From the IMG/VR virus record IMGVR_UViG_2579778871_000005: 36,051 nt of DNA; one strand, 5' to 3'. The first letter of the stretch is position 1, and each line of letters starts with the position of its first letter. The notes below the pieces were generated by a model that was not told where the DNA came from, did not search any database, and saw only the letters and a program-made list of their open reading frames with translations. Shown here in pieces: positions 4,165 through 33,206 of the stretch. Source of the DNA: a virus (Duplodnaviria; Heunggongvirae; Uroviricota; Caudoviricetes). Made by a program: the position numbers and the translations under genes.

Positions 4165-4883
4165 TACTCCTCCGGGTAAACAGTGACAAACTCAATACTC
4201 CAGCAGCCCGCTCCAACACTCATAACGCTGGTCTGCTCAACATTGCCATGCAGCGGAGGCAACACCGTTACCACCTCTGCACTCAGACACTCCGTCGCCA
4301 GATAAACCGCAGACGACTGACTCACGCTCTCCGCAATCCACGGCAGAACGGTAGCGATCTCGCCGCCCTGAACCGCGCTGGCGATAACGGGGATCTGGCT
4401 CTGGTTAATCAGCCAGATAGTCAGCATCTCCAGCTTTGAGCGGACGTTCTTGTACTCATGGATCAGCACAATCAGCGCGTTAAATTCATCCTCAGTCAGC
4501 CCGCGCGTCTCAAGCGTCACACCCATGCGGAAAAAGTACGGCTTGCCGCCATACTCAAACCACTCGCTGATATCGCCGTCCAGTGCCAGAATCTTCAGTA
4601 CCTGACGCACAGCCCACGGCGTACCGCGATAGCGGTGCAGCTCAATGGCCTGCTTGATCAGATCGCGTTTCTGCCGCTCATTACGGGCGAACAGCCAGCC
4701 TTCCAGCCCCTGAACATGAAACTGTTCTGCCAGCGACGGTAGCGCCGTGGCGTCCACCAGATCCACTAGGTAAATCAGCAGCACAGTCAGATCGAGTTGT
4801 GCGAAGCGTTCGGCGGCAAGATTTGCCAGCCGGGTAAAGCGTTCATCCCCGGCCAGCGGCGGTTGAAGCGGTAACTTATCCAT
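4164..4883 (-). CDS. Tail/baseplate protein, P2 gpI-like
   Basis: 239-aa ORF between the baseplate J-like and tail fiber genes, the gpI position in P2-type tails; overlapping start/stop with neighbours. Confidence 0.65.
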   Translation of the reverse strand: MDKLPLQPPLAGDERFTRLANLAAERFAQLDLTVLLIYLVDLVDATALPSLAEQFHVQGLEGWLFARNERQKRDLIKQAIELHRYRGTPWAVRQVLKILALDGDISEWFEYGGKPYFFRMGVTLETRGLTEDEFNALIVLIHEYKNVRSKLEMLTIWLINQSQIPVIASAVQGGEIATVLPWIAESVSQSSAVYLATECLSAEVVTVLPPLHGNVEQTSVMSVGAGCWSIEFVTVYPEE

Positions 4884-5991
4884 CGCTCACCCCGGCGATG
4901 GTCACATCAATTGCGGTACACTGCGCCCACTCATGCGCCGCCAGCACTCGTTTGGCAGGCGTTTCCAGCGCCACGTCATAAACTCCCGCCACCTGCAACA
5001 CCTTGATGATTTGATTGGGGACGATATCCAGCCCCAGATGGCGCTCGCGTTCTGCCGTCCAGTCGGCGATGGCCCGCCGCGCGGCAAGCAGGGTTGAGTC
5101 CTGATCGGCTTTAGTGAACAGCGTGAGTTGCGCGTTAATCTGATATGCCACGCGGAGTGGTTTCTTCGCGCTCACCTTATCTGTCAGTGGGCGCTTTTTC
5201 TCTTTGCTGACGTCCTGTACCACCTGTGCGAGCAGTTCGTCTCCGGGCAGGCCGTCCTGCGTCAGCGGGTAAATCTCCACGCAACCTTCATCCAGCCCTT
5301 CATCCGGGCCGAGGATGGCCACGTCGATAATCGCCTGACTGACCGACAACGCATGAAAGCGGTACGCGCCATAACTGCCCGCGTTGCTGAAGCACTCCGG
5401 GGCCAGCCGGATACGCTCACGCAGGGCGTCGTCACCCTCATCGGCACATCCACCGCCTGAAGCAGTAATGTTCGTTACCTGCAAATCCACGCCCGCCACG
5501 CTGTCTACCAGTGCGCTAATCTGCGCCGGTTGCCAGTCATTACCAGGCTCACCAGCGGTGGTACAGGTGGCAGTCACATCCACGCTCAGGCTTCCGGCAG
5601 GCAGCAGCACGTCATCATCGGTGGCAAACATCACGCTGTTAGAGGCGCTGGCGCGGGTTCCCTCCGGGATCAACACATTGCGCTTTTGCGCCTTGGCAAC
5701 GGAGAATTGCAATGTGGTCTGCGCCGCTTGTGCGGGCAGGCGCTTCACACCCACCAGTTCGCCGAGATAATCGAGCATTGGCGCACGGGAAAACGCCACA
5801 AGGTTCTGCTTTGCCGCTTCCTGGATGCCGATGCGTACAAGGTTCTCACGGTAGGCAAAGACGTCTATCAGCAGCCGCTCCGCCTGCGCCGGATAGAGCG
5901 TTTTACCGCTGGCCGCTTCATACTGCGCAATCATCTCGCTGGTAATTTGCGCCGGGTCGCGGTCGATAAAATCGGGTTCATCTAACGCCAT
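4876..5991 (-). CDS. Baseplate protein, P2 gpJ-like
   Basis: 371-aa ORF downstream of the W-like gene; size and synteny (V-W-J-I-H) match a P2-type baseplate; assignment by synteny and general similarity. Confidence 0.7.
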   Translation of the reverse strand: MALDEPDFIDRDPAQITSEMIAQYEAASGKTLYPAQAERLLIDVFAYRENLVRIGIQEAAKQNLVAFSRAPMLDYLGELVGVKRLPAQAAQTTLQFSVAKAQKRNVLIPEGTRASASNSVMFATDDDVLLPAGSLSVDVTATCTTAGEPGNDWQPAQISALVDSVAGVDLQVTNITASGGGCADEGDDALRERIRLAPECFSNAGSYGAYRFHALSVSQAIIDVAILGPDEGLDEGCVEIYPLTQDGLPGDELLAQVVQDVSKEKKRPLTDKVSAKKPLRVAYQINAQLTLFTKADQDSTLLAARRAIADWTAERERHLGLDIVPNQIIKVLQVAGVYDVALETPAKRVLAAHEWAQCTAIDVTIAGVSDG

Positions 5992-7993: not shown

Positions 7994-8199
7994 GGTGGCA
8001 CCTCATCAACATCATGCACCTGCATCGGCCCAATCACCGGGATACGCAGCCGCAGCCCGGAGGCCAGCGTGGGCGTGATCGCAATATGCGGATTAGCGAT
8101 AATGATGCGCTCATAGCCCATCGGATCGCCATAATAGCGGAACGCCAGATTATCCCAGCGTTCACCCTCGGTGGTGATATGTTCAATCCAGCCGCCCAT
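7981..8199 (-). CDS. Tail protein X-like (small LysM-like tail protein)
   Basis: 72-aa ORF (MGGWIEHITTEGERWDNLAFRYYGDPMGYERIIIANP...) of the size and motif pattern of P2 gpX-family proteins. Confidence 0.55.
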   Translation of the reverse strand: MGGWIEHITTEGERWDNLAFRYYGDPMGYERIIIANPHIAITPTLASGLRLRIPVIGPMQVHDVDEVPPWLR

Positions 8200-9182
8200 T
8201 ACACGCTCCTTGTAATGATTGCTGCCGCCAGCCTGCTAACGGCAGGGGAGCACTCTTCCATCAGCGACTGGCCGTTGCGCACAACGTCCAGTGCCTGCGA
8301 AAAAACAGTGGTGAAATTGTCCAGACTGATATCCTCAAACCCGGTCAGGGTGCCGCTGATTTCGTCATAAATCTGCGAGGCGTATTGCCCGACGTCGCCA
8401 AGAACATCTGCAAGTACGCTGCCGTCTGTGATGTCCGTCAGCGTTTGCAGCACATCGTCCAGGGGGGACAATACATCGTCGAGAATATCTTCCAGCGGAG
8501 AGACCACCTCGTCCAGCATCTCCTCCAGCGGTCCCAGTACATCATCAACAAGATCCCCGACTTGTTCCATTGCTTCTCCAATGGCGTCCTCGACCTGTCC
8601 CGCCATATCTTCTGCCCACGACACCGCCTCATCGAACGCCTGCGCAGCGGCATCCAGCGCATCCGATACCTCACCCAGCCCGTCAGTAATATCGCCCAGG
8701 TCTTCGAACATATCGCTGCCAGAAAAACTGTCATCAGCATCGTCAGACCATGAGTCAATATTCGGATCATCCCCGGACACCGCAGGTGGCGTCAGGGGAT
8801 TTTTCGGATCGCCGATGTACTCCTTCAGCGACAGCTCCGCACTTAACGCCTGCACATTGCCGAGGCCATCGGTCTGCTGGCTGGTTGCCCGGATATCGGT
8901 GATCACAAACCAGCCGCGATAGTCACCGTTGCCGAACACCAGCGCCAGCGCCTGATGTGCCACCATCGCGTCACGCAGCCGCGCCAGTTCAACATCCGGC
9001 TGGCAATAGTGTTCGTGGAACACCAGGCTGATACTCACTTCATCCAGCTTTTCGCCGATAAACTGCAACCCCGGCTTACCTTCGATACGTGAGTGCTCGG
9101 CATAATCCATGCCAAACGACGCATCAAAACCGTCCCAGTAGGTCACCACCTCAAACTCAATATCACCCAGTACGGCAAACAT
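8199..9182 (-). CDS. Tail protein, P2 gpU-like N-terminal domain with acidic repeat-rich C-terminus
   Basis: 327-aa ORF immediately downstream of the tape measure gene; C-terminal half made of degenerate acidic repeats (DxxxDVLSPLEDxLDxV). Confidence 0.5.
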   Translation of the reverse strand: MFAVLGDIEFEVVTYWDGFDASFGMDYAEHSRIEGKPGLQFIGEKLDEVSISLVFHEHYCQPDVELARLRDAMVAHQALALVFGNGDYRGWFVITDIRATSQQTDGLGNVQALSAELSLKEYIGDPKNPLTPPAVSGDDPNIDSWSDDADDSFSGSDMFEDLGDITDGLGEVSDALDAAAQAFDEAVSWAEDMAGQVEDAIGEAMEQVGDLVDDVLGPLEEMLDEVVSPLEDILDDVLSPLDDVLQTLTDITDGSVLADVLGDVGQYASQIYDEISGTLTGFEDISLDNFTTVFSQALDVVRNGQSLMEECSPAVSRLAAAIITRSV

Positions 9183-23233: not shown

Positions 23234-23544
23234 CTGCCACCCCCTTGCGACAGTTCGATTTTGTTATACAGCGCATCCAGTTTGGCTTCGATAACCGTCT
23301 GGCCCCGGATGTAGTCCTCGCGCCGCACGTAGTTCAATGGCATATCGGCGCGGAACTCCAGGAACTCGCGCTCCAGCCGTGACCAGCCTGACTCTGAATC
23401 TTTACGCGCCGCCTCCAGTGCCTCAAAGCGTTCATTTAGTCGCTTCTCAATCTGGGTTAACAGCATCTTACCGGCGGCAAACATTACCCCCAGAAACGAC
23501 AGCAGCATGGAAACCACTTCCCAGAAATCAACCTGCAACATCAT
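23230..23544 (-). CDS. Hypothetical membrane-anchored coiled-coil protein
   Basis: ORF 23230..23604; ATG at 23544 (MMLQVDFWEVVSMLLSFLGVMFAAG...) overlaps the Rz stop; one N-terminal hydrophobic helix. Confidence 0.45.
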   Translation of the reverse strand: MMLQVDFWEVVSMLLSFLGVMFAAGKMLLTQIEKRLNERFEALEAARKDSESGWSRLEREFLEFRADMPLNYVRREDYIRGQTVIEAKLDALYNKIELSQGGGR

Positions 23545-24111
23545 CGTGACACCTCTCTGATGTACTGCTGTAACCCATGTACCTGTGCCTTCAGTTGCTG
23601 GCACTGTTTTCCGTTGTCAGCAATGCTGGCGAGGACGTCGCGCTGGTTGATACCGGATGCGCGTAACCGGGTGTCAGCGCCCGGAACGACTGCGGCGGTT
23701 GCGCCAGCGTCGCGGGAAGCGGCGGCAATGTCCGGGGCGGACACACCGAAGGCGGCGTTGTACTGCTGCACGAAGCCGCGAGTAAACACGCAATCGACAG
23801 GGTGAGCCTTGCCGCGTTCGTCAATGTAATGATGCGTAACATCGTTAATTTTCCTTTGAAGTTCGGCGTTACGGGCGGTCAGCTCTTCCGTCCGGGTGAG
23901 ATACGTCTGTTCATGTTGGCGAATGTTAATAAGCTGCTGCTGGCTACGGTTCATCTCTTCCTGCAAAGCCCGCTGGCTGGCCTCAGCCTGCTGTTTTTGC
24001 AGGCGCAGGCATTCGGTCTGTGCCTTCTCATAGCCCGCCTTATGACCTTGCAGCCAGGCGAAATACCCACCCAATGCAAAGGCAAGCGTGATGGCTAACC
24101 CTTTATTGAAC
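23541..24111 (-). CDS. Rz-like inner-membrane spanin (i-spanin)
   Basis: ORF 23541..24215; probable GTG start at 24111 preceded by GGGGAGGGG; product has an N-terminal TM helix (LAITLAFALGGYFAWL) then a long coiled coil; directly downstream of the transglycosylase. Confidence 0.6.
23591..23842 (-). CDS. Rz1-like outer-membrane lipoprotein spanin (o-spanin), embedded out of frame in Rz
   Basis: 83-aa ORF wholly inside the Rz gene in another frame; lipobox-like LLAASC followed by a Pro-rich segment (TTPPSVCPPRTLPPLPATLAQPP), the hallmark of embedded Rz1 genes. Confidence 0.55.
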   Translation of the reverse strand: MLRIITLTNAARLTLSIACLLAASCSSTTPPSVCPPRTLPPLPATLAQPPQSFRALTPGYAHPVSTSATSSPALLTTENSASN

Positions 24112-24837
24112 ACAGGTAGCCCCTCCCCATGACAGGTAGCGCGGTGCGTTCTGGTAGAGGATGCGCTGCGGATAACCCCGGTTCTCGCGCCAGTTCGCCG
24201 CACTACGCCCGGCATTGACCGTGGCTACAACATCGAACCAGACGCCTGCATCCAGCCCGCGCTGCGTCGCCAGCTTCTTGTCGCGGTTAACCCAGCCTAA
24301 GCCGCCGTTATAGGCGCTTAAGGTGAATGCCATCCGCTGGCAACCATCGCGGGCGCTGACGCGCTGCCACAACCACAGGTCGTATTGCACCAGCGCCCGG
24401 ATGGCCCACGACGGGTTAAACGGTTCGCGGGCGCGGAGTTCGGGAAACAGTTGGCTGATCCAGTCGCTGGTGGAGGGCATAAACTGCGCCATCCCCTGTG
24501 CGCCAACGGGCGAGCGGGCAGAAGGGTTCCAGCCGGATTCCTGCTGGAACTGCCCGGCGAAATCCGCCACCGGCGCATCCATACCCCACACAGCGCGGGC
24601 GTTGCGAACCAGTTCAGCGCGGTAGGGTTTGGCGGCGGCGGGTGGTTCGGCAGCGTTAGCCTGGCTGAAAAAGCCGCCGCACCAGAGCAGCCAGCCTGCA
24701 ATCAGTACCGCCAGCGACTGATACCAGAAATTGTGTTTATCGGTGCGTGGTTGCCCGTGACGCGCCAGCGCCATTCCCATCCCCAGCAGTGCCGCCACAG
24801 ACCAGACAACCTGCGGCCAGTACATATGCAGCGTCAT
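24103..24837 (-). CDS. Lytic transglycosylase endolysin with N-terminal hydrophobic anchor
   Basis: ORF 24103..24867; ATG at 24837 (MTLHMYWPQVVWSVAALLGMGMALA...); contains a transglycosylase-like motif with catalytic Glu (..FAGQFQQESGWNPSARSPVGAQGMAQFMP..); two N-terminal hydrophobic segments. Confidence 0.75.
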   Translation of the reverse strand: MTLHMYWPQVVWSVAALLGMGMALARHGQPRTDKHNFWYQSLAVLIAGWLLWCGGFFSQANAAEPPAAAKPYRAELVRNARAVWGMDAPVADFAGQFQQESGWNPSARSPVGAQGMAQFMPSTSDWISQLFPELRAREPFNPSWAIRALVQYDLWLWQRVSARDGCQRMAFTLSAYNGGLGWVNRDKKLATQRGLDAGVWFDVVATVNAGRSAANWRENRGYPQRILYQNAPRYLSWGGATCVQ

Positions 24838-24839
24838 GG

Positions 24840-25130
24840 CTACAGCCCCATCGCCACGGACAGACACACCGCCGCGACAATCACGGCCCGGCGTAGCATC
24901 GCGGCGGAAAAGAGACGTTGTTCATCTTCCGCTGACTGAAAATAATTGGGCCGCGCATAGGGAAACAGGCTGCGATCCAGCCAGTAACCCAGCACCGCCG
25001 CCAGTGAAATCAGGCTTAGTTTGTAGATGACAACCGGGAGTTGCTGCGGGGAAATCAGGGCAATCAGTGCGAACAGCACCACCGATGCCACCAGCCAGCC
25101 GGATAAACGCGGGAAAAGAGAATTTTTCAT
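24840..25130 (-). CDS. Holin candidate (small protein with three hydrophobic segments)
   Basis: ORF 24840..25142; ATG at 25130 preceded by GGAGG; 96 aa; directly upstream of and abutting the endolysin gene. Confidence 0.5.
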   Translation of the reverse strand: MKNSLFPRLSGWLVASVVLFALIALISPQQLPVVIYKLSLISLAAVLGYWLDRSLFPYARPNYFQSAEDEQRLFSAAMLRRAVIVAAVCLSVAMGL

Positions 25131-25195
25131 AAGTGCCTCCATTGGGTGATGAAGGCAGTGTGGGGGATGGCTGGCAGGAAGGCTTTTAAAGGGGT

Positions 25196-26404
25196 TTAAG
25201 GAGTGGGCTTATTGCTCAAGTGATGCCACCATGACATCACTTTTGTAACCAAGGTATTCCATGTTTCAGGGTATGTGCAGTATAGGTAAATTAATCCTGT
25301 CGATATAATAGCGACAACAAGGAACATAATGATAAACCAGAACGCAATAACCTGACGGCAAAGACGTTTACGTACAGAGCAAAAGATACTATCAATGTCA
25401 TTTTTTATTGATGCATACTTTTTATCAACCTGAGTCTTTTTATGTCGAAGTTCTTCTTTGATAGCGGTTAACGTCTGTAACTGGTTGAACAAAGTCAACA
25501 TAACCAACGTAGCAAAAACAAAGGCCCCTAAAAAAACTGCGCTATTGATAATGGTTTGATAGACATCACCACTTGCTTTCTTGATTTGTGTCGCGACGAT
25601 AATGGTTGCGACTGGGATACCCAGTATCTGGTTTTGGATATCTGAAAAGACTTTGTGGATACGTCCCATTTCTTCAACTTTGGCGGTTCTAAGTTCATCC
25701 AGAACCTTTTCGTATGAGAACCCAGAAGTGAAGAGGCGATAACCCTTATCGAACTCAACTTTTAATTTTTCAATGTTCTTCAGTGCATACTCAAAGACTT
25801 TATTGTTTTCCGTTTCCTGACCGATTAACTGGATGCTTTCAATTAAAAGGGAGAGTTTCTGCTCTTTGTGTGTGTCGTCAGAAAACTGCTGAATGAGTTC
25901 ATCGAGTGTCGTTTTATCAAGATTTTCTACGGTTTCTGCACTGTAACGTATAGGTAATTTAAATACATCGGCACGGAAAAAAACGCATTCATATGCTCTG
26001 GTATCAAAGTATGCCGACTTTTCTTTAAGCAGGCGCAGAAATGTTAAGATAGTGCGGTAGTTTTCAATTACGGATGTTGGCGCATCCGAACTATAAAATT
26101 GGCTGTCGATCAGGTAGTATCGGGAAGGTTCCTCGCTTTGGTGTTTTGGCGACTTTAACAAAGCCGCCAAATTACGGCATAGCAGACCTAGCTTTGTCTT
26201 TGGGGCGTTCACAAATAGCGACACCTGCTGACCAGGTTCTACTTCGCCTTGTGCCAGAGAGATCCCATATGTATCAGTGTCCTCAAGCAAGGTGTTGAGC
26301 AACTCGCAGGATTCTGGGGTAAGCACCAGCGTACCTTCGGCCATATCGTTACCGAAAGTAATCTGCCTGTACAATCCCACCAGCTGCTCAAAACTGATAC
26401 TCAC
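25196..26404 (-). CDS. Cargo protein of unknown function with ~330-aa soluble N-terminal region and two C-terminal TM helices
   Basis: 402-aa ORF; its start overlaps the stop of the NdpA-like gene (ATGA at 26401-26404); C-terminal hydrophobic helices (..TIINSAVFLGAFVFATLVMLTLF.. and ..VIAFWFIIMFLVVAIISTGLIYLY..); AT-richer than the phage backbone by eye. Confidence 0.75.
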   Translation of the reverse strand: MSISFEQLVGLYRQITFGNDMAEGTLVLTPESCELLNTLLEDTDTYGISLAQGEVEPGQQVSLFVNAPKTKLGLLCRNLAALLKSPKHQSEEPSRYYLIDSQFYSSDAPTSVIENYRTILTFLRLLKEKSAYFDTRAYECVFFRADVFKLPIRYSAETVENLDKTTLDELIQQFSDDTHKEQKLSLLIESIQLIGQETENNKVFEYALKNIEKLKVEFDKGYRLFTSGFSYEKVLDELRTAKVEEMGRIHKVFSDIQNQILGIPVATIIVATQIKKASGDVYQTIINSAVFLGAFVFATLVMLTLFNQLQTLTAIKEELRHKKTQVDKKYASIKNDIDSIFCSVRKRLCRQVIAFWFIIMFLVVAIISTGLIYLYCTYPETWNTLVTKVMSWWHHLSNKPTP

Positions 26405-27432
26405 TCCTCAACCTCATCCAGTATCTCTTCCCTGAAGCTATCAGGAATATTCCTTAGAATGATTACATCCTGATCACGATTATACTCAATTGAACCATCT
26501 ACAAGACCGACACGATCAAACTTTAGTTCCCAATAATTAGACTTTCCTTTAAAGGAAATGATTCCTTTTAGTACGCGTCCATCAGGGACAAAACCATCCG
26601 ACAGTTCCAGTTCTTGGTTGGCTAGTTTAGTCGAGAGTAGTTCTGGTTCTTGTGGCCAGACCGCATTCACAAAGGTTGTCAGATCTACAGGCTCACCATC
26701 TTTGCTCAGTTGCTTCAAATGGTCATGTGCAGTTTGCAGAAAAGCCTCTCGATGTGCGGGGTCAAGCCCTTGCTCAGTCGCAAATTCTTTCAACGCATCC
26801 CGCAATTTCTCCGTTTCACGCTTGGCGATCAAAACATCGTTACAGCCCAGGAATTGCTTAAAGTAACCAGATACAGCATTACTCCCCTTCAGGAAACTTA
26901 TATAACGTTCGGCACCTGATTGCCAGGACGTAATGTCAATACGCCCCGCCACACGTAGCTTGTCGATATCAAGGTAGACACTTTCTTGGATAGCAAAGGC
27001 ATCGTTAACCGCAGTACCCGTCGTGGGACTTAACATGGCAACTAAAATATGCTCGTGTTGATTCATCGTAATGTGGGCGAATAGAACATAGCCACCAGTA
27101 GCGAGTGGTGTTGTTTGAATTCGAGATTCCAAATGACGAATCATACGGCAGGAGCTACGGTAAAAATTATCAGGATGCTCCTGAGCTAAATAGTCTGATA
27201 CAATTGTTTGCATCGGGTAATTATCTGGGTCATCTTCAAAATGGCCATAGCCTTTCCCCATTCGCCCTGCATATTTCCCACAGATATCATCGATTAAGCG
27301 TTGTGATGCTGCGGTGACACCGCTCTCTGTTGGACTTAGCTGTAAGGATGTCACCCCATGCGGTTCTTTATCTAAAAGATGAACAACCACATGATTTACA
27401 ACGATTGCATTTGCAGGTTCATTTGCTGGCAT
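26401..27432 (-). CDS. NdpA/YejK-like nucleoid-associated protein homolog (diverged)
   Basis: ORF 26401..27483 (first codon GTG); likely ATG at 27432. Segment GGYVLFAHITMNQHEHILVAMLSP...RIDITSWQSGAERYISFLKGSNAVSGYFKQFLG aligns with E. coli YejK as I recall it ([24 protein letters not shown]...[37 protein letters not shown]). Confidence 0.65.
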   Translation of the reverse strand: MPANEPANAIVVNHVVVHLLDKEPHGVTSLQLSPTESGVTAASQRLIDDICGKYAGRMGKGYGHFEDDPDNYPMQTIVSDYLAQEHPDNFYRSSCRMIRHLESRIQTTPLATGGYVLFAHITMNQHEHILVAMLSPTTGTAVNDAFAIQESVYLDIDKLRVAGRIDITSWQSGAERYISFLKGSNAVSGYFKQFLGCNDVLIAKRETEKLRDALKEFATEQGLDPAHREAFLQTAHDHLKQLSKDGEPVDLTTFVNAVWPQEPELLSTKLANQELELSDGFVPDGRVLKGIISFKGKSNYWELKFDRVGLVDGSIEYNRDQDVIILRNIPDSFREEILDEVEE

Positions 27433-27509
27433 AGAATCTGAAACCTTCAGTAGAGTTAGATAGTAAATGCATGCTGTCTGCACGCTTTTTGGTTTTGTTT
27501 ACAACATGT

Positions 27510-28031
27510 TTAATCTTGCCTTGGACACATCCAGTAATCCTCATCCGGCTCTGGCGAGTAAACCATCAGGCACCCTTCGCGCGGCGGCTTCTTATCAGAA
27601 GTCATAGGAACTTTTTCTTTATCCAGTTTCACAACCAGATCCCCACCCGGTACATCCGCTTTATCGAAGCAGACAGACTGGCAGGCAGATTTTGAAATCT
27701 TTACTTCGTGGGTATTATTGGAGATGAAAAGGAAGCAGGTATGACCGGAGGCAGTGTAATTACCTGGTATGTCGTTTTTATCTTTTACGTGAAACTCGAC
27801 CGTCGTAACGGGACGTTGGCTATCATCGTAGACCTTGAACGAATCGAAGTTTGTCGCGTACTTATCCAGACCTGGGCACTGTTGACGAATAAACGGCAGT
27901 TCACGTTTTACTACCGGATTATCGGACTCAACCTTAAATGTAGTAGGGACAGGAGATGGTGCGGCATTATCATCACCACACCCAACCATTAGCAGAGCAC
28001 TTACCCCCAGAGGTAAAAGAAAGTGCTTCAT
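27510..28031 (-). CDS. Cys-rich lipoprotein of unknown function (possible exclusion protein)
   Basis: 173-aa ORF with signal peptide and lipobox (MKHFLLPLGVSALLMVGC); AAGGA ribosome-binding site before the ATG at 28031; same strand as and downstream of the repressor. Confidence 0.7.
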   Translation of the reverse strand: MKHFLLPLGVSALLMVGCGDDNAAPSPVPTTFKVESDNPVVKRELPFIRQQCPGLDKYATNFDSFKVYDDSQRPVTTVEFHVKDKNDIPGNYTASGHTCFLFISNNTHEVKISKSACQSVCFDKADVPGGDLVVKLDKEKVPMTSDKKPPREGCLMVYSPEPDEDYWMCPRQD

Positions 28032-28143
28032 AAAACATCCTTATCTAAAGAAACTCCGTCAACTCTGACAGCAGGTCTCTGGTGACAGAGATAACCAACA
28101 GACCTTTTGAGGCTTTAACCAGGTGCGTAATACCACTACGTTA

Positions 28144-28494
28144 CTATCCGGCTTGTTTATCGGGTCGGGCCTGCGTGAGCAATCGGCCCATTTCAAGAAT
28201 CGCCCTCCGTTGTTCGGCGCTCATATCGTCAAAGGCCTCTAACAACCTTTGTTTTTCTGGTGAAAAATTTTCTACCTTTTCTGCAACCATTGATGGATTA
28301 CGTTGCCCAGTAACTACATAGAGAACATCTAATCCAACCTTTGCCCAAGCCTCTAAAACCGCACTATTAGGGAACGAAGCGCCTTTTTCCCAATTGATTT
28401 GGGAGTGCTTACCTGCGCTAGCCAAAGCAGCGAAATCAGTCTGGTTGTAACCCAACCGTTCACGTTCCTTTTTAATGCGTTCACCTTGGTTCAT
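28144..28494 (-). CDS. Prophage repressor, XRE-family helix-turn-helix protein
   Basis: 116-aa ORF with N-terminal HTH-like segment (..IKKERERLGYNQTDFAALASAGKHSQINWEKG..); divergent from the early operon across a repeat-containing intergenic region; no peptidase domain. Confidence 0.7.
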   Translation of the reverse strand: MNQGERIKKERERLGYNQTDFAALASAGKHSQINWEKGASFPNSAVLEAWAKVGLDVLYVVTGQRNPSMVAEKVENFSPEKQRLLEAFDDMSAEQRRAILEMGRLLTQARPDKQAG

Positions 28495-28589
28495 TTTTTT
28501 CTACTTTTACATTGAAAGGTTGAAAATTTTCTACCATAATCTACCACACATAAACCAAACATCATTGCATCAAACAAGGAGCCAGAACC
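28495..28589. promoter_or_regulatory. Divergent repressor/early promoter-operator region
   Basis: Candidate rightward sigma70 promoter: -35 TTGAAA (28512-28517), 17-bp spacer, -10 CATAAT (28535-28540); repeated TTTTCTAC(C) at 28497-28504 and 28527-28535 and TCTACCA at 28540-28546; AAGGA before the ATG at 28590. Confidence 0.45.
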
Positions 28590-28775
28590 ATGACAACCGA
28601 TCAGGTCAAAGCCCTCTTTCGTCAGCGCGGCGTTACCTTTACCCGCTGGGCAGAAGATAACGGTTACACCCGCAATGAGGTGTATCGCGTGCTTAATGGT
28701 CAGTCAAAAGCCAACTACGGAAAGGCGCATGAGATTGCCGTCAAACTTGGCCTTAAGTCCGGCATCGCCGCCTAG
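28590..28775 (+). CDS. Ner/Cro-like small DNA-binding protein (first early gene)
   Basis: 61-aa ORF opening the rightward operon opposite the repressor; HTH-like pattern (..RQRGVTFTRWAEDNGYTRNEVYRVLNG..). Confidence 0.5.
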   Translation: MTTDQVKALFRQRGVTFTRWAEDNGYTRNEVYRVLNGQSKANYGKAHEIAVKLGLKSGIAA

Positions 28776-29379: not shown

Positions 29380-30330
29380 ATGGCACGTCAAAAATCACAA
29401 CCCGCCGAACTGGTGCCGGATGCGCCGCTGGACGCCGAACTGAACGTCGGACTGAATGCGCTGGCGGAACACCGCATTGAGATTATGCAACAGTTCGGTG
29501 ACGGCCTGCCGTATGAGCGTGACCGCGTGGTGCATGAGGCACGGTTTTATATGTCGCAGAGCGCCGAGGCAATGCTGGAAGCGGGTAAGCGGCTGGTGAT
29601 ACTGAAAGAGAATGAACCGCATGGGGAGTTCACGGCAATTGTCACTGAACAGTTGGGGCTAGGTGACCGGGCTGCACGCCGTATGATGCAGGCGTCTATT
29701 AAGTACCTTTCACCTACGCTTGAGTCAAAACGGCCAACGTTGGCCGTTTTGGGTAAGGCTAAATTATTTGAACTGGTATCAGAGGATGACGAAGACCTTA
29801 CAGCATTAGCCGAAGGCGGCACCGTCGCTGGCCTGACACTGGACGACGTAGATCGCATGAGCTGCCGCGAACTCCGCGCCGCTCTGCGTGAAGCCCGCGA
29901 GGACGCCGACGCCCAGCGCCGCGTTCTGTCCGATAAGAATGACAAAATTGACAAACTCTCCACCCTGCTCGCCAAAAAGTCCCGAATCGCGCCGCCGCCC
30001 CCGGATGTAGAGGACGAGCAGTTGCGTAAGGAAGTCATGGCTATCGCCTTCGAAGCTGAAGCCATTATTCGCGGCAAGCTCTATGAGGCCTTCACCGTAT
30101 TGAATCAGCATCATTCGGAACTGGTTCAGACGCATCCCTACGCCTTTATGACGGGCCTGCTGTGTCAGATTGACAGCGCCACCACCTATCTGCGCGAAGA
30201 GTTTGGCCTTGCTGCTGAACCACGCAGTGACGCCGCGCCGGAGTGGGTAACAGACCCCACGCCAGAGATTGATCGCCCGGAATGGATGAATGCTTCAGAT
30301 TCAGAACCTGTTCAGGCGGATTGTATATGA
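29380..30330 (+). CDS. DUF3102-like early protein
   Basis: 316-aa ORF directly upstream of the transposase; motif ..GKRLVILKENEPHGEFTAIVTEQLGLGDRAARRMMQAS.. matches the pattern I associate with DUF3102 proteins of Mu-like phages. Confidence 0.55.
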   Translation: MARQKSQPAELVPDAPLDAELNVGLNALAEHRIEIMQQFGDGLPYERDRVVHEARFYMSQSAEAMLEAGKRLVILKENEPHGEFTAIVTEQLGLGDRAARRMMQASIKYLSPTLESKRPTLAVLGKAKLFELVSEDDEDLTALAEGGTVAGLTLDDVDRMSCRELRAALREAREDADAQRRVLSDKNDKIDKLSTLLAKKSRIAPPPPDVEDEQLRKEVMAIAFEAEAIIRGKLYEAFTVLNQHHSELVQTHPYAFMTGLLCQIDSATTYLREEFGLAAEPRSDAAPEWVTDPTPEIDRPEWMNASDSEPVQADCI

Positions 30331-32072
30331 GCGCCGTCATGACCGAACGCTTAGTTGCTTTTGCTCAGGCTGCGCGGCAGGCCGGGCATGGTACACGAGG
30401 CGCAATCTATGCTGCCGCCTGCGCGGAGTTGGGCCTTTCCCGCGCCACGCTGTTACGCAAAATCAAGGAAGTCGCCGTGACTGATAATCGTAAGCGCAGA
30501 ACAGACGCAGGGAAAACCGCGCTGACCCGCGACGAGGCGGTGATGATATCCGCGACACTGATGGAAGCCACTCGTAAGAACGGCAAGCGCCTGTATTCCG
30601 TCGCCGACGCCGTGGAAATGTTACGCGCCAACAACGAAATTGACGCCGGGCGACTGGATGAAGAATCCGGTGAATGGATGCCGTTGTCGGAAAGCACCAT
30701 TATCCGGGCGCTACGCGGCTACGGCCTGCACCCGGATCAGCTCAGTCAGCCCGCGCCGGTGACGGAACTCGCCAGCCTGCACCCCAATCACGTCTGGGAA
30801 ATCGACGCCTCGCTCTGCACGTTGTACTACCTCAGCAATGGACAGCATGGCTTACAGGTGATGGACAGTTCGAAGTTCTACAAGAACAAGCCGAAGAATC
30901 TGCAACGTATCGCCAGTGACCGGGTATGGAGTTACGAACTGACCGACCACACCAGCGGCTGGATCTACGTTGAATACGTGATGGGCGCGGAGTCTGGCGA
31001 GAATCTTTGCTCAGTGCTGATAAACGCCATGCAGGAGCGCGGCGGCGCGGATGTGCTTCACGGCGTACCGCATATGCTGTATCTCGACCCCGGCTCGGCT
31101 AACACCGCGGCCATGACCAAAAACCTCTGCCGTTCGCTGGGCATTGACGTGGTAGCACATAAAGCCCACAACGCCCGCGCCACCGGGCAGGTGGAAAAGG
31201 CGCGTGACATTATCGAGCGCCGCTTTGAACCGGGGCTGAAGTTCCAACCGGTTCATAGTCTGGAGGAACTGAACGCCAAAGCGAAGCTGTGGCGGCAGCA
31301 CTTCAACGCCACCGCCATTCACACTCGCCACGGCAAGTCGCGTAGTAACGTCTGGATGACCATCACCACGCAACAGCTTATCAAAGCGCCATCGGTGGAT
31401 GTATGCCGCGAACTGGCCGTTGCCGCGCCGGAAAGCCGCAAGGTAACACCAAAGCTGCGCGTCTCCTTCCGGGGCGCTGAATATGATGTGTCGTCGGTGC
31501 CGGGTGTGATGGTGGGTGAGAAACTGATGATCACCCGCAATCCGTGGCGCACTGACGCTGCGCAGGTAGTTCTTATCGGCGACGATGGCCATGAGTATTT
31601 TCATCTGGTGGAAGAAGTTCGTAAGAATGAATACGGCTTTGCCCAGGATGCTGCGGTACTGGGCCAGAACCATAAGCGCCACGCCGATACACCAGCGCAG
31701 ACTGCTGCTAAACAAATTGAGCAGATTGTTACCGAAACGGATAACGAGACTGACGCAGCCGCTGCGCGTAAAGCGAAGGCGCTGCCGTTCGGCGGCAGGC
31801 TCGACCCGTACAAACCGATCACCGACAGCGAACTCCCCGCGTTCCTACCGCGTCGCGGCCAGGATTCTCTGGTACGCGCCCCACGTATTGAGGAAAGGCT
31901 TTTAACTCACGTTGAAGCTGCGAAGGCGCTGAAAGCGCGTCTGCCGGAATGGAGCGTAGCAGTGTATCAGGAACTGGTGAAACGCTGGCCAGAAGGCGTG
32001 GCGGAAGAAGAACTGGACGCCGCCGCGCAGCAGCTTACCGCCCGAGTGCAACTGAACGTAGTCGGTGGTTAA
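30327..32072 (+). CDS. DDE transposase (Mu A-like function, integrase-core fold)
   Basis: ORF 30282..32072; ATG at 30327 overlaps the upstream stop (ATGA); candidate catalytic residues in ..VWEIDASLC.., ..LYLDPGSANT.. and a downstream Glu; followed by an AAA+ ATPase gene, the transposase/ATPase pairing of Mu, IS21 and Tn7-type elements. Confidence 0.8.
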   Translation: MSAVMTERLVAFAQAARQAGHGTRGAIYAAACAELGLSRATLLRKIKEVAVTDNRKRRTDAGKTALTRDEAVMISATLMEATRKNGKRLYSVADAVEMLRANNEIDAGRLDEESGEWMPLSESTIIRALRGYGLHPDQLSQPAPVTELASLHPNHVWEIDASLCTLYYLSNGQHGLQVMDSSKFYKNKPKNLQRIASDRVWSYELTDHTSGWIYVEYVMGAESGENLCSVLINAMQERGGADVLHGVPHMLYLDPGSANTAAMTKNLCRSLGIDVVAHKAHNARATGQVEKARDIIERRFEPGLKFQPVHSLEELNAKAKLWRQHFNATAIHTRHGKSRSNVWMTITTQQLIKAPSVDVCRELAVAAPESRKVTPKLRVSFRGAEYDVSSVPGVMVGEKLMITRNPWRTDAAQVVLIGDDGHEYFHLVEEVRKNEYGFAQDAAVLGQNHKRHADTPAQTAAKQIEQIVTETDNETDAAAARKAKALPFGGRLDPYKPITDSELPAFLPRRGQDSLVRAPRIEERLLTHVEAAKALKARLPEWSVAVYQELVKRWPEGVAEEELDAAAQQLTARVQLNVVGG

Positions 32073-32081
32073 GGGGGAGTT

Positions 32082-33206
32082 ATGCAGATTAAACAACAGT
32101 TGCGCCAGCGTGGCATCACTCAGGCAGCAGTAGCACAGGCTACCGGGGTTTCCGCAGCGGTTATCGCGCAGATGGTTAATCACGGCCTGTGGCCGAAAAC
32201 AGAAGAACTACGGGAGCGCATCAGCGCATTTTTGGCAGAAAAAGGTATTGAACTGAAAGTGGGACAGGCAGCGGCCACTGCCTGCCCCGATACCGCATCC
32301 ACAAGGGACGAAAATATGTTACTGGCAAAACAGGTATTAAATCCAGCGGCGAAGAAACATTTTGGGCTGTTCCGCGACCCGTTCGCTGATGAAGTCATGC
32401 AGAGCGCGGACGATGTATTCACCACGCCGGATATCCGTTATGTGCGCGAGGCGCTGTACCAGACTGCGCGTCACGGCGGGTTTATTGCGGTGACAGGTGA
32501 ATCCGGCGCAGGGAAAACCACGCTGCGCCGTGACCTGGCTGACCGCATCAACCGCGAAAACGCGCCCGTTATCATCATCGAGCCGTATATCATCGCGATG
32601 GAAGACAACGACGCAAAGGGTAAAACCCTGAAAGCTGCCGCCATAGCAGAAGCCATCATCAACACCATCGCGCCGCTGGAGAACGTCAAACGCTCGCAGG
32701 AGGCGCGTTATCGCCAGTTGCACCGGGTGCTAAAGGAATCGGCCCGTGCCGGGTTCTCACATTGCCTTGTTATCGAAGAGGCGCACTCGCTGCCGGTGCC
32801 GACGCTCAAGCACCTGAAACGCTTCTTTGAGCTGGAAGATGGCTTTAAGAAACTGCTGTCGATAGTGCTGATTGGTCAGCCTGAACTGAAGCTGAAACTG
32901 TCCGAACGTAATCAGGAAGTGCGTGAAGTGGTTCAACGTTGCGAGGTTGTCGAACTGCTGCCGCTGGACAACTATCTGGAATCGTTTCTGGCGTTTAAAT
33001 TTCAGCGTGCCGGAAAAGGAGTTTCAGAGGTGCTGGATGATAGCGCCGCCGATGCTATCCGCGCCCGGCTGTGCAATTCATCCCGACGCGGTGACGTCAG
33101 TCTGCTGTACCCGCTGGCGCTGGGGAATCTGGTTATCGCTGCAATGAATCTGGCTGCTGATATCGGCGTACCCGTAGTGAATGCCGATGTGATTAAAGGA
33201 GTGTGA
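32082..33206 (+). CDS. Transposition ATPase (Mu B-like AAA+ protein) with N-terminal HTH
   Basis: 374-aa ORF; Walker A ..VTGESGAGKTTL.. and Walker B-like ..HCLVIEEAHSL..; N-terminal HTH-like segment (..LRQRGITQAAVAQATGVSAAVIAQMVN..). Confidence 0.8.
   Translation: MQIKQQLRQRGITQAAVAQATGVSAAVIAQMVNHGLWPKTEELRERISAFLAEKGIELKVGQAAATACPDTASTRDENMLLAKQVLNPAAKKHFGLFRDPFADEVMQSADDVFTTPDIRYVREALYQTARHGGFIAVTGESGAGKTTLRRDLADRINRENAPVIIIEPYIIAMEDNDAKGKTLKAAAIAEAIINTIAPLENVKRSQEARYRQLHRVLKESARAGFSHCLVIEEAHSLPVPTLKHLKRFFELEDGFKKLLSIVLIGQPELKLKLSERNQEVREVVQRCEVVELLPLDNYLESFLAFKFQRAGKGVSEVLDDSAADAIRARLCNSSRRGDVSLLYPLALGNLVIAAMNLAADIGVPVVNADVIKGV

What the first reader, a model, noticed from the sequence alone, without database searches (positions are those of the whole stretch)
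27510..28031. Cys-rich lipoprotein immediately downstream of the repressor: candidate superinfection-exclusion factor
A 173-aa protein with a clear lipobox (LLMVGC) and at least six further cysteines lies between the repressor and the NdpA-like pair, on the same strand and with a good ribosome-binding site. Prophage lipoproteins in this kind of position often block DNA injection or receptors of incoming phages. It may act alone or with the downstream pair.
Basis: inference. Interest (0 to 1): 0.5.

Follow-up and report, generated by a model that had tools for sequence, protein, structure and literature searches.

The report
Repressor-linked lipoprotein of Mu-like prophages
This is a real, conserved gene for a small lipid-anchored, disulfide-bonded periplasmic protein that Mu-like transposable prophages carry directly behind their repressor gene; its family is unnamed and untested, its most plausible job is an envelope-level block against other phages, and it does not depend on the two defence genes next to it.

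Summary
Window 27510..28031 (minus strand) encodes a 173-aa protein with a rule-conforming lipobox (LLMVG|C18), an AAGGA ribosome-binding site and six further cysteines. It lies between an HTH repressor and an NdpA-like gene. It is under purifying selection (dN/dS 0.11-0.18).

It belongs to an uncharacterised family. About 130 cluster representatives were found, with no Pfam, NCBIfam, PADLOC or PDB match. The roughly 100-residue core is always placed behind a lipobox, signal peptide or transmembrane anchor. Cysteines are gained and lost in pairs (C52/C121, C99/C117), as expected for periplasmic disulfides.

All 15 independent loci with long context are Mu/BcepMu-like transposable phages. In 14 the gene directly follows the repressor, and in one it follows mor. 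The genes downstream vary (NdpA pair, Dam methylase, Acb2/Tad1-like), so it is not co-conserved with the NdpA pair. That pair resembles a self-contained type II PANGU/DS1-like abortive-infection system.

In some phages the domain is fused to, or adjacent to, a Flk-like tail-anchored protein.

Superinfection exclusion is the best-supported reading, but it rests on inference from position and topology only. No assay, homology or fold match supports it.

The parts
27510..28031 (-). Complete lipoprotein gene (173 aa plus stop); identical to E. coli WP_050483972.1, which PGAP annotates as 'hypothetical protein'
   Evidence: purifying selection
28038..28042 (-). Shine-Dalgarno AAGGA, 6 nt upstream of the ATG
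   Evidence: read
27981..28031 (-). Signal peptide, aa 1-17 (n-region MKH, h-region FLLPLGVSALLMV, lipobox L-M-V-G)
   Evidence: rule-based test; conserved across the alignment
27978..27980 (-). Cys18 codon (TGT), the predicted lipid-modified first residue of the mature protein; residue +2 is Gly
   Evidence: (invariant column)
27921..27977 (-). Low-complexity tether, aa 19-37 (GDDNAAPSPVPTT...); low pLDDT and variable in length between homologues
27606..27920 (-). Conserved core domain, aa ~38-142: helix 39-57, strands 62-69, 75-82, 98-104 and 109-112, helix 115-122, strand 132-135. Motifs are CPGLDKY, IP..Y.A.GH.CF and K.AC.SVC.D. Inferred disulfides are C52-C121 and C99-C117.
   Evidence: HMMER family; alignments; AF2 core pLDDT 94-98; Cys co-occurrence
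27513..27605 (-). C-terminal Pro-rich Cys-loop tail, aa 143-173 (..KKPPREGC154LMVYSPEPDEDYWMC169PRQD). It is also kept in the 311-319-aa long forms, after a ~160-aa helical insert.
28032..28143 (-). Repressor-lipoprotein intergenic region (112 nt); no convincing intrinsic terminator or sigma-70 promoter found
28144..28494 (-). HTH (Cro/C1-type) repressor-like gene immediately upstream, the probable operon partner. It is a different allele from that of the E. fergusonii phage whose lipoprotein is 90% identical.
25196..27483 (-). Neighbouring but independent cargo: an NA37/NdpA-like gene (26401-27483; probable true start 27432) plus a 402-aa C-terminally membrane-anchored protein (25196-26404). 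They resemble the DS1 / type II PANGU abortive-infection system. Listed only to mark the boundary; not part of the lipoprotein unit.

Best explanation
Shown or strongly supported (about 0.9). The gene encodes a prolipoprotein that is exported, lipid-modified at Cys18 and folded in the oxidising periplasm. It forms a compact helix-plus-antiparallel-sheet domain held by two disulfides (C52-C121, C99-C117). A Pro-rich C-terminal loop is closed by a third disulfide (C154-C169). The gene is a fixed feature of the immunity region of Mu/BcepMu-like transposable phages. It sits directly behind the repressor on the repressor's strand, while both the repressor allele upstream and the cargo downstream are swapped around it.

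Inferred. It is co-transcribed with the repressor and therefore made in lysogens. There it works as a stand-alone envelope protein that interferes with incoming phages at the periplasm or inner-membrane stage, which is superinfection exclusion. Because the family is confined to Mu-like phages of very different hosts, and because some members are inner-membrane-anchored rather than lipid-anchored, the likeliest target is either a conserved component of the entry machinery of Mu-like (or other tailed) phages or a conserved periplasmic or inner-membrane host factor. A host-specific outer-membrane receptor is less likely. It does not need the downstream NdpA-like pair.
For: Gene reality and export.

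Periplasmic topology across the family: every representative places the domain after a lipobox (63 of 137 by a strict rule), an N-terminal hydrophobic segment or a transmembrane helix.

Disulfide pairing over 140 sequences: C52/C121 are both present in 97, both absent in 30 and discordant in 13. C99/C117 are both present in 131, both absent in 7 and discordant in 2. Within the close family the C52/C121 covariation is perfect.

Context: all 15 independent long-context loci are Mu-like transposable phages, carrying an rve or Mu transposase, a MuB-like AAA protein, GemA, Mor, Mu gp27 and a Mu portal. In 14 the gene directly follows an HTH repressor, or has one membrane or Flk-like gene in between. 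Gaps range from a 4-nt overlap to about 190 nt.

Independence from neighbours: the downstream genes differ between phages (same calls), and the repressor allele differs while the lipoprotein stays 90% identical.

Nothing against read-through from the repressor was found.

Precedent for lysogen co-transcription of the gene after the repressor in a transposable phage with the same layout: Fc02 RNA-seq, PMC9936078.

The lysis role is already filled by a holin, an SLT endolysin, Rz and an embedded Rz1.

From general knowledge: membrane proteins or lipoproteins encoded in lysogeny modules (TP-J34 Ltp, lactococcal Sie2009, phi80/N15 Cor, HK97 gp15) are the classical exclusion factors.

Against: Expression in lysogens is inferred, not measured. 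This window has a longer gap (112 nt) than its relatives.

In the Pseudoxanthomonas Mu-like prophage the gene overlaps mor and precedes holin-SLT. That implies early or middle lytic expression there.

dN/dS is low (0.11-0.18), with no sign of the diversifying selection often seen in proteins that contact rival phages.

The +2 Gly predicts outer-membrane sorting in E. coli, while TM-anchored paralogues sit in the inner membrane, so the site of action is unresolved.
Confidence: 0.45

Rival explanations
1. Lytic-cycle envelope function: the protein controls or protects lysis. It might restrain the membrane-tethered SLT endolysin or the spanins. Alternatively, like T5 Llp, it might neutralise receptors or debris so that progeny are not wasted.
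Confidence: 0.17
2. Lysogenic-conversion or host-fitness factor: an envelope lipoprotein that benefits the host (stress or serum resistance, envelope remodelling, in the manner of lambda Bor) with no direct anti-phage role.
For: It has the position of a lysogeny-expressed moron and lies in a low-GC island (0.41-0.46 against ~0.57 for the backbone). It is an exported lipoprotein.
Against: The family is found in phages of unrelated hosts (Enterobacterales, Xanthomonadaceae, Desulfovibrionaceae, metagenomes). Yet in every long context it lies in a Mu-like phage and in one fixed slot. That pattern points to a phage-centred function rather than a niche-specific one. There is no similarity to Bor, Lom or TraT-type families in Pfam.
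Confidence: 0.18
3. Periplasmic half of a trans-envelope module. Together with a membrane-anchored cytoplasmic partner (Flk-like), it relays an envelope event to the cytoplasm, for example to the lysogeny switch or to an abortive response. In this window the partner would be missing or replaced.
For: There is a fusion/fission relationship. In E. coli L010 one 328-aa protein carries a Flk-like N-domain, a TM helix and this domain, and its gene overlaps the repressor gene by 4 nt. In L017 a Flk-like tail-anchored protein and a separate 134-aa lipoprotein are adjacent. The two Flk-like parts are homologous (E=1e-21). Other phages place a different membrane protein between the repressor and the lipoprotein.
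Against: This window and its closest relatives have no such partner: there are only 35-112 nt between the repressor and the lipoprotein. The function of the Flk-like domain in phages is unknown. Fusion to a TM protein may simply be an alternative anchor.
Confidence: 0.08
4. Third component (sensor or anchor) of the downstream NdpA-like/TM defence pair.
For: It is adjacent and on the same strand in this window and in the E. fergusonii-type phages.
Against: It is not co-conserved. Most phages carrying the lipoprotein lack the pair. The pair matches the two-gene NCBIfam DS1_1/DS1_2 anti-phage models (E=4e-18 and 1e-20, below the curated cut-offs). It also matches the published two-gene type II PANGU architecture, which worked in E. 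coli without a third gene.
Confidence: 0.03

Closest known systems
Ltp of Streptococcus phage TP-J34 and lactococcal Sie2009-type proteins (lysogeny-module exclusion lipoproteins or membrane proteins)
   Same: A small membrane-tethered, extracytoplasmic protein encoded next to the repressor in the lysogeny module and expressed from the prophage (general knowledge). The proposed action is at DNA entry.
   Different: No sequence or fold similarity. Those hosts are Gram-positive. Exclusion has been shown experimentally for those proteins and has not been tested here.
T5 Llp and phi80/N15/HK022 Cor (receptor-blocking phage lipoproteins)
   Same: Phage-encoded Gram-negative lipoproteins; Llp is disulfide-stabilised. 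They act in the envelope against superinfection.
   Different: Those proteins are much smaller and target one outer-membrane receptor (FhuA). This family spans hosts without a shared receptor, has inner-membrane-anchored members and shows no homology.
phrog_10002 (PHROG family of unknown function) = Flk_N+TM+domain proteins such as P0165
   Same: The core domain is homologous (E=8e-14, aa 19-130 against profile positions 211-321). The slot directly after the repressor in BcepMu-like E. coli prophages is the same.
   Different: Those proteins are 328-aa bitopic inner-membrane proteins with a Flk-like cytoplasmic domain and no C-terminal Cys-loop tail. The window protein is a lipoprotein with the tail and without the Flk-like part.
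Accessory gene e4 and the exclusion genes olg1/sie1 and gene 10 of Pseudomonas transposable phage Fc02 (PMC9936078)
   Same: The genome layout is the same: repressor and late genes on one strand, ner and early genes on the other. The gene after the repressor is transcribed with it in the lysogen, and exclusion genes cluster in the immunity region.
   Different: No detectable homology: no Pseudomonas phage record matched in tblastn. The Fc02 exclusion proteins are not described as lipoproteins.
Rz1-type o-spanins
   Same: A phage lipoprotein with Pro-rich segments and periplasmic cysteines.
   Different: The phage has its own Rz1 embedded in Rz at 23591-23842. This protein has a folded 100-aa domain and lies outside the lysis cassette.
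Small helix-on-sheet periplasmic folds (LolA; PepSY/BLIP-like; Ivy)

Membership tests
Bacterial lipoproteins (Lgt/LspA/Lnt substrates) | Positively charged n-region, uncharged h-region, lipobox [LVI][ASTVI][GAS]-C with Cys at about position 15-35 | tested here: met
   MKHFLLPLGVSALLMVG|C18 passes a PS51257-type rule. Cys18 is invariant in 24 homologues. SignalP and LipoP were not available.
Bacterial lipoproteins (Lgt/LspA/Lnt substrates) | Actual lipid modification and globomycin-sensitive cleavage | not testable with these tools
   Needs wet-lab work: palmitate labelling and globomycin treatment.
Unnamed Mu-like-phage periplasmic domain family (includes phrog_10002) | Core motif set: P.I...CPGLDKY / IP..Y.A.GH.CF / K.AC.SVC.D, with two Cys pairs | tested here: met
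   Profile search: 132 representatives at E<=1e-3 and 29 at E<=1e-10. PHROG E=8e-14. Conserved columns and Cys pairing.
Unnamed Mu-like-phage periplasmic domain family (includes phrog_10002) | Located in a Mu-like transposable phage, next to the immunity repressor | tested here: met
   Window: rve transposase, MuB-like AAA protein, GemA, Mor and Mu portal. The same holds in 15 of 15 long-context loci, with 14 of 15 after the repressor.
Known superinfection-exclusion lipoproteins (Llp, Cor, Ltp) and PADLOC defence proteins | Sequence homology to the family | tested here: not met
   No Pfam hit at E<=0.01, no NCBIfam hit and no PADLOC hit.
Known superinfection-exclusion lipoproteins (Llp, Cor, Ltp) and PADLOC defence proteins | Structural similarity to a solved exclusion protein | tested here: not met
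Known superinfection-exclusion lipoproteins (Llp, Cor, Ltp) and PADLOC defence proteins | Exclusion phenotype when expressed alone | not testable with these tools
   No experimental data were found for any member.
o-spanin (Rz1) | Small Pro-rich lipoprotein gene embedded in, overlapping or adjacent to the i-spanin gene in the lysis cassette | tested here: not met
   A separate Rz1-like ORF is embedded in Rz at 23591-23842. This gene lies 2.4 kb upstream of the holin and outside the cassette.
DS1 / type II PANGU anti-phage system (as a third component) | Co-occurrence with the NAP (NA37) and TM-effector genes | tested here: not met
   The pair is present only in the window and in the E. fergusonii-type loci L002/L003. 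It is absent from at least 11 other phage lineages that keep the lipoprotein.
Flk-like (Flk_N, PF27202 / NCBIfam PRK10715) proteins | Flk-like N-terminal cytoplasmic domain | tested here: not met
   The window protein has no such region and no NCBIfam hit. Only the fused relatives P0165/P0166 and the L017 neighbour match Flk (E=3e-12 and 8e-14).

The most novel reading that the evidence does not exclude
The domain is the periplasmic sensor or effector head of a Mu-like-phage-specific trans-envelope device. Alone as a lipoprotein, or joined to a Flk-like tail-anchored cytoplasmic domain (fused in some phages, encoded by the adjacent gene in others), it detects or blocks an event in the periplasm. 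That event could be an incoming tail tip or tape measure, or envelope damage. In the fused or paired forms it would relay the event across the inner membrane to the repressor-controlled switch or to an abortive response. This would be a new fold and a new class of prophage immunity-region function, conserved from Desulfovibrio to E. coli phages.
Probability: 0.1. Interest if true: 0.8.

Novelty: new variant of a known kind. Interest (0 to 1): 0.42.

Why it matters
Transposable (Mu/BcepMu-like) prophages are common in Enterobacterales and in many other Proteobacteria. Apart from the repressor itself, what their immunity regions express in lysogens is largely unknown.

This analysis defines a protein family that is as stable a feature of that region as the repressor. 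It keeps its slot while repressor alleles and defence or anti-defence cargo are exchanged around it. It has a confidently predicted fold with no solved relative, and it is annotated everywhere as 'hypothetical'.

If it is an exclusion factor, it would be the first described for this phage group in enteric bacteria. It would also be a handle on how Mu-like phages cross the periplasm.

The work separates the lipoprotein from the adjacent NdpA-like/TM pair, which belongs to a recently described abortive-infection type. It also marks the slot between the lipoprotein and the holin as a cargo hotspot.

Tried and rejected
- Pfam, NCBIfam and PADLOC scans of the protein and of 51 family members gave no family.
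- PDB sequence searches matched only signal-peptide regions.
- megablast of the region against GenBank phages gave nothing.
- tblastn with four family members found only two unannotated or 'hypothetical' records: a Klebsiella phage KP12 contig and Escherichia phage Phi06_2974 B.
- Single-protein scans of IMG/VR with P0051 and P0056 found nothing.
- Contigs for P0053, P0049 and P0092 were too short to show context.
- P0048, a 4417-aa hit with 17 matched stretches, is a T/G/S-rich repeat protein. It was rejected as a compositional false positive.
- The spanin hypothesis was rejected because Rz1 was found elsewhere.
- The 'third component of the NdpA pair' hypothesis was rejected on co-conservation.
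- The idea of a dedicated SLT-endolysin inhibitor was down-weighted. Some phages carrying the domain lack a recognisable SLT gene nearby, and one carries it far from any lysis gene.
- Literature searches found no paper on this family.

Full report
**1. The observation.**
The ORF is real and lies as described, on the minus strand at 27510..28031 (ATG start, 173 aa). Its N-terminus, MKHFLLPLGVSALLMVG|C18, passes a PROSITE-type lipobox rule. The Cys18 codon (TGT) is at 27978-27980. An AAGGA Shine-Dalgarno sequence lies 6 nt before the ATG. The mature protein has exactly six further cysteines: C52, C99, C117, C121, C154 and C169.

Upstream on the same strand is a 116-aa HTH repressor-like gene (28144..28494; HTH_19, PHROG repressor families). 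Downstream are an NA37/NdpA-family gene (26401..27483) and a 402-aa gene (25196..26404).

The gene is under purifying selection. dN/dS is 0.18 against a 90%-identical copy and 0.11 against 70%-identical copies. Only one other credible lipobox ORF exists in the window, and that is the Rz1 spanin. SignalP and LipoP could not be run.

**2. What the window is.**
The 36-kb window is a complete BcepMu-like transposable prophage.
- Late genes run leftward from the lysis cassette: holin 24840-25142, SLT endolysin 24103-24867, Rz with an embedded Rz1, then Mu gp27, terminase, Mu portal and so on.
- Early genes run rightward from a Ner-like gene at 28590: MarR-like, DUF3102, rve transposase 30282-32072, MuB-like AAA protein, DUF3164, GemA and Mor.
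- The segment 25000-28500 is a low-GC island, 0.41-0.46 against about 0.57 for the backbone.
- Region 27400-28600 is 100% identical in two of 5,426 complete E. coli genomes (strains A35 and OkiPb01694). There PGAP calls the protein WP_050483972.1 'hypothetical protein'.

**3. The family.**
- Close homologues form 29 clusters at 57-90% identity. All are from Enterobacterales (E. fergusonii, Salmonella, Citrobacter, E. coli, Apirhabdus). Among 50,697 GenBank phage records only two carry it.
- A profile search of 1.84 billion representatives found 132 proteins at E<=1e-3, 29 of them at E<=1e-10. One is a low-complexity false positive.
- The shared unit is a core of about 100 residues (aa ~38-142 here) with the motifs CPGLDKY, IP..Y.A.GH.CF and K.AC.SVC.D.
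- Most members are lipoproteins of about 140 aa. By a strict rule 63 of 137 have a lipobox. The rest have an N-terminal hydrophobic segment or a transmembrane helix before the domain. The domain is therefore always extracytoplasmic.
- The cysteines come and go in pairs over 140 sequences. C52/C121 are both present in 97, both absent in 30 and discordant in 13. C99/C117 are both present in 131, both absent in 7 and discordant in 2. This pattern indicates two structural disulfides.
- The enterobacterial subfamily adds a Pro-rich C-terminal tail closed by C154/C169. The tail is retained even in 311-319-aa 'long' forms that carry a ~160-aa helical insert.
- No Pfam, NCBIfam or PADLOC model matches. 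The only library hit is phrog_10002, of unknown function.

**4. Structure.**
AlphaFold2 with the close alignment gave mean pLDDT 80.6. With the 51-sequence diverse alignment, the core scores 94-98 in all five models, with the same secondary structure. The order is helix 39-57, strands 62-69, 75-82, 98-104 and 109-112, helix 115-122, and strand 132-135.

**5. Genomic context, the main new result.**
I obtained 15 independent loci with 10 kb or more of context. They came from:
- E. coli (three types)
- E. fergusonii
- E. albertii
- Apirhabdus
- the Klebsiella phage KP12 contig
- Pectobacterium
- Xenorhabdus
- Symbiopectobacterium (decayed copy)
- Mixta
- Maridesulfovibrio
- Pseudoxanthomonas
- an IMG/VR contig
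- two further assemblies that were not taxonomically placed here (L017/L018 and L028/L029)

Every one is a Mu-like transposable phage. In 14 the gene directly follows an HTH repressor on the repressor's strand. The gap is 35-40 nt in the closest relatives, a 4-nt overlap in L010, and 112 nt here. In three lineages one membrane or Flk-like gene lies in between (L017, L019 and L022/L023). In the remaining locus (Pseudoxanthomonas, a collinear Mu layout) the gene overlaps mor by 4 nt and precedes holin-SLT.

What follows the gene varies:
- the NdpA-like pair (window, L002/L003)
- a Dam methylase on the opposite strand (KP12, Apirhabdus, Xenorhabdus, Mixta)
- an Acb2/Tad1-hairpin gene on the opposite strand (L028/L029)
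- unrelated ORFs
- the end of the prophage (Maridesulfovibrio)

What precedes it also varies. This window's repressor is a different allele from that of the E. fergusonii phage whose lipoprotein is 90% identical, and homology resumes just before the lipoprotein's ribosome-binding site. The gene is thus a fixed point between two recombining segments.

**6. The neighbours.**
The NdpA-like protein and the 402-aa protein with C-terminal membrane helices match the NCBIfam models DS1_1 'nucleoid-associated anti-phage protein' (E=4e-18) and DS1_2 'anti-phage protein' (E=1e-20). Both scores are below the curated cut-offs. The pair also has the architecture of type II PANGU (Pag2A NAP plus Pag2B TM effector), reported to protect E. 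coli as a two-gene system (bioRxiv 10.64898/2026.04.06.716658).

**7. Flk-like partners.**
- In E. coli locus L010, the protein in the same slot is a 328-aa fusion of a Flk-like cytoplasmic domain, a TM helix and this domain (NCBIfam PRK10715 E=3e-12; precomputed Pfam Flk_N).
- In L017 a 196-aa Flk-like tail-anchored protein and a separate 134-aa lipoprotein are adjacent. The two Flk-like parts are homologous (E=1e-21).
- Other phages place unrelated membrane proteins between the repressor and the lipoprotein.
- The window has no such partner.

This fusion/fission relationship shows that the domain can work anchored to the inner membrane. It leaves open a trans-envelope function.

**8. How it most likely works.**
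Shown or strongly supported:
- export, lipid anchoring (by rule) and a disulfide-stabilised periplasmic fold
- fixed linkage to the repressor
- independence from the adjacent cargo

Inferred:
- Co-transcription with the repressor in lysogens. Nothing resembling a terminator or promoter was found in the gap. There is no room for a promoter in relatives with 35-nt gaps or overlaps. In the B3-like transposable phage Fc02, which has the same layout, RNA-seq showed the lysogen transcript covering the repressor and the accessory gene after it (PMC9936078).
- From position and topology, the best reading is an envelope-level exclusion factor. The family is restricted to Mu-like phages across very different hosts, and some members are inner-membrane-anchored. 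I therefore favour a target in the periplasmic or inner-membrane entry step, or a conserved phage entry component, over a host-specific outer-membrane receptor.

Confidence is about 0.45. Three things keep it there. No member has ever been assayed. There is no similarity to known exclusion proteins. And dN/dS is low rather than showing arms-race diversification.

**9. Rivals.**
- *Lytic-cycle role (0.17).* Suggested by the mor-linked Pseudoxanthomonas copy and the shared strand with the lysis genes. Against it: the lysis cassette is complete (holin, SLT, Rz, embedded Rz1), cargo intervenes, sometimes on the opposite strand, and the Maridesulfovibrio copy lies far from any lysis gene.
- *Host-fitness conversion factor (0.18).* Possible, but it fits poorly with the phage-restricted, host-independent distribution.
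- *Trans-envelope signalling with a Flk-like partner (0.08).* The most novel option. The partner is absent here.
- *Third component of the NdpA pair (0.03).* Rejected on co-conservation.

**10. Comparison and novelty.**
Functionally the nearest known things are the lysogeny-module exclusion lipoproteins and membrane proteins (Ltp, Sie2009, Cor, Llp). The gene is not a member of any of those families, because the homology and fold tests were not met. It is a member of an unnamed family that includes phrog_10002.

I rate it a new variant of a known kind. The niche is familiar: a prophage envelope protein next to the repressor. It is filled here by an unrelated, uncharacterised domain with an unusual restriction to transposable phages and with alternative anchors and fusions.

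Interest is moderate (0.42). It is a well-defined, testable lead and a clean family definition, but no surprising mechanism has been shown.

Noticed in passing
window 25196-27483 (-): The NdpA/NA37-like gene and the following 402-aa protein with C-terminal membrane helices match NCBIfam DS1_1 and DS1_2 anti-phage models (E=4e-18 and 1e-20, below the curated cut-offs). They have the two-gene architecture of type II PANGU (NAP sensor plus TM effector) described in bioRxiv 10.64898/2026.04.06.716658. PADLOC 2023 does not recognise them. The two genes overlap by 4 nt.
   Followed up: partly
window ~25143-27509, and the equivalent slot in L001, L005, L010, L012, L021-L025, L028, L029: The interval between the lipoprotein gene and the holin is a cargo hotspot in BcepMu-like phages. 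Different phages carry there a PANGU-like pair, a Dam methylase (opposite strand), a DUF2441 gene, an Acb2/Tad1-hairpin anti-defence-like gene (opposite strand), or unknown ORFs.
   Followed up: partly
window 23591-23842 (-), inside 23541-24215 (-): A Pro-rich lipobox ORF (MTNAARLTLSIACLLAAS|CSSTTPPSVCPPRTLPP...) is embedded in another frame of the Rz-like gene. This is a typical embedded Rz1 o-spanin and is not listed as a gene in the PGAP record seen.
   Followed up: partly
window 28032-28600 compared with L002 7430-8050: This window's repressor (116 aa) and its operator region are unrelated in sequence to the 136-aa repressor of the E. fergusonii phage. The flanking lipoprotein is 90% identical and the MarR-like early gene 100% identical, so this is an immunity-region swap, with homology resuming just upstream of the lipoprotein's ribosome-binding site.
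   Followed up: partly
L010 8001-8987; L017 7396-8405: Flk-like (flagellar regulator Flk N-domain) tail-anchored proteins occur in the immunity regions of BcepMu-like prophages. They are either fused to the periplasmic domain or encoded by the gene before it. It is unknown why a phage would carry a Flk-like domain.
   Followed up: partly
window 24103-24867 (-): The SLT-domain endolysin has one or two hydrophobic segments at its N-terminus (…WPQVVWSVAALLGMGMALA… and …LAVLIAGWLLWCGGFF…). This suggests a membrane-tethered (SAR-type or signal-anchored) endolysin.
   Followed up: no
L024 (Symbiopectobacterium MAG), 4253-5953 and 8001-8937: This copy of the prophage is decaying. The transposase, the lipoprotein (split into two ORFs), Dam, SLT and the portal are all fragmented.
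   Followed up: no
L027 207-2199 (2.4-kb metagenome contig): A distant family member (P0092) lies next to a Fic/VbhA toxin-antitoxin pair on the opposite strand. The contig is too short to tell whether this is also a Mu-like phage.
   Followed up: no
L020 10889-11809 (E. coli A35) compared with window 32082-33206: PGAP marks the MuB-like/ExeA-family gene, and two small late-region genes, as frameshifted pseudogenes in strain A35. The window has an intact 374-aa ORF at 32082-33206. Identity between the window and A35 was checked only for 27400-28600.
   Followed up: no
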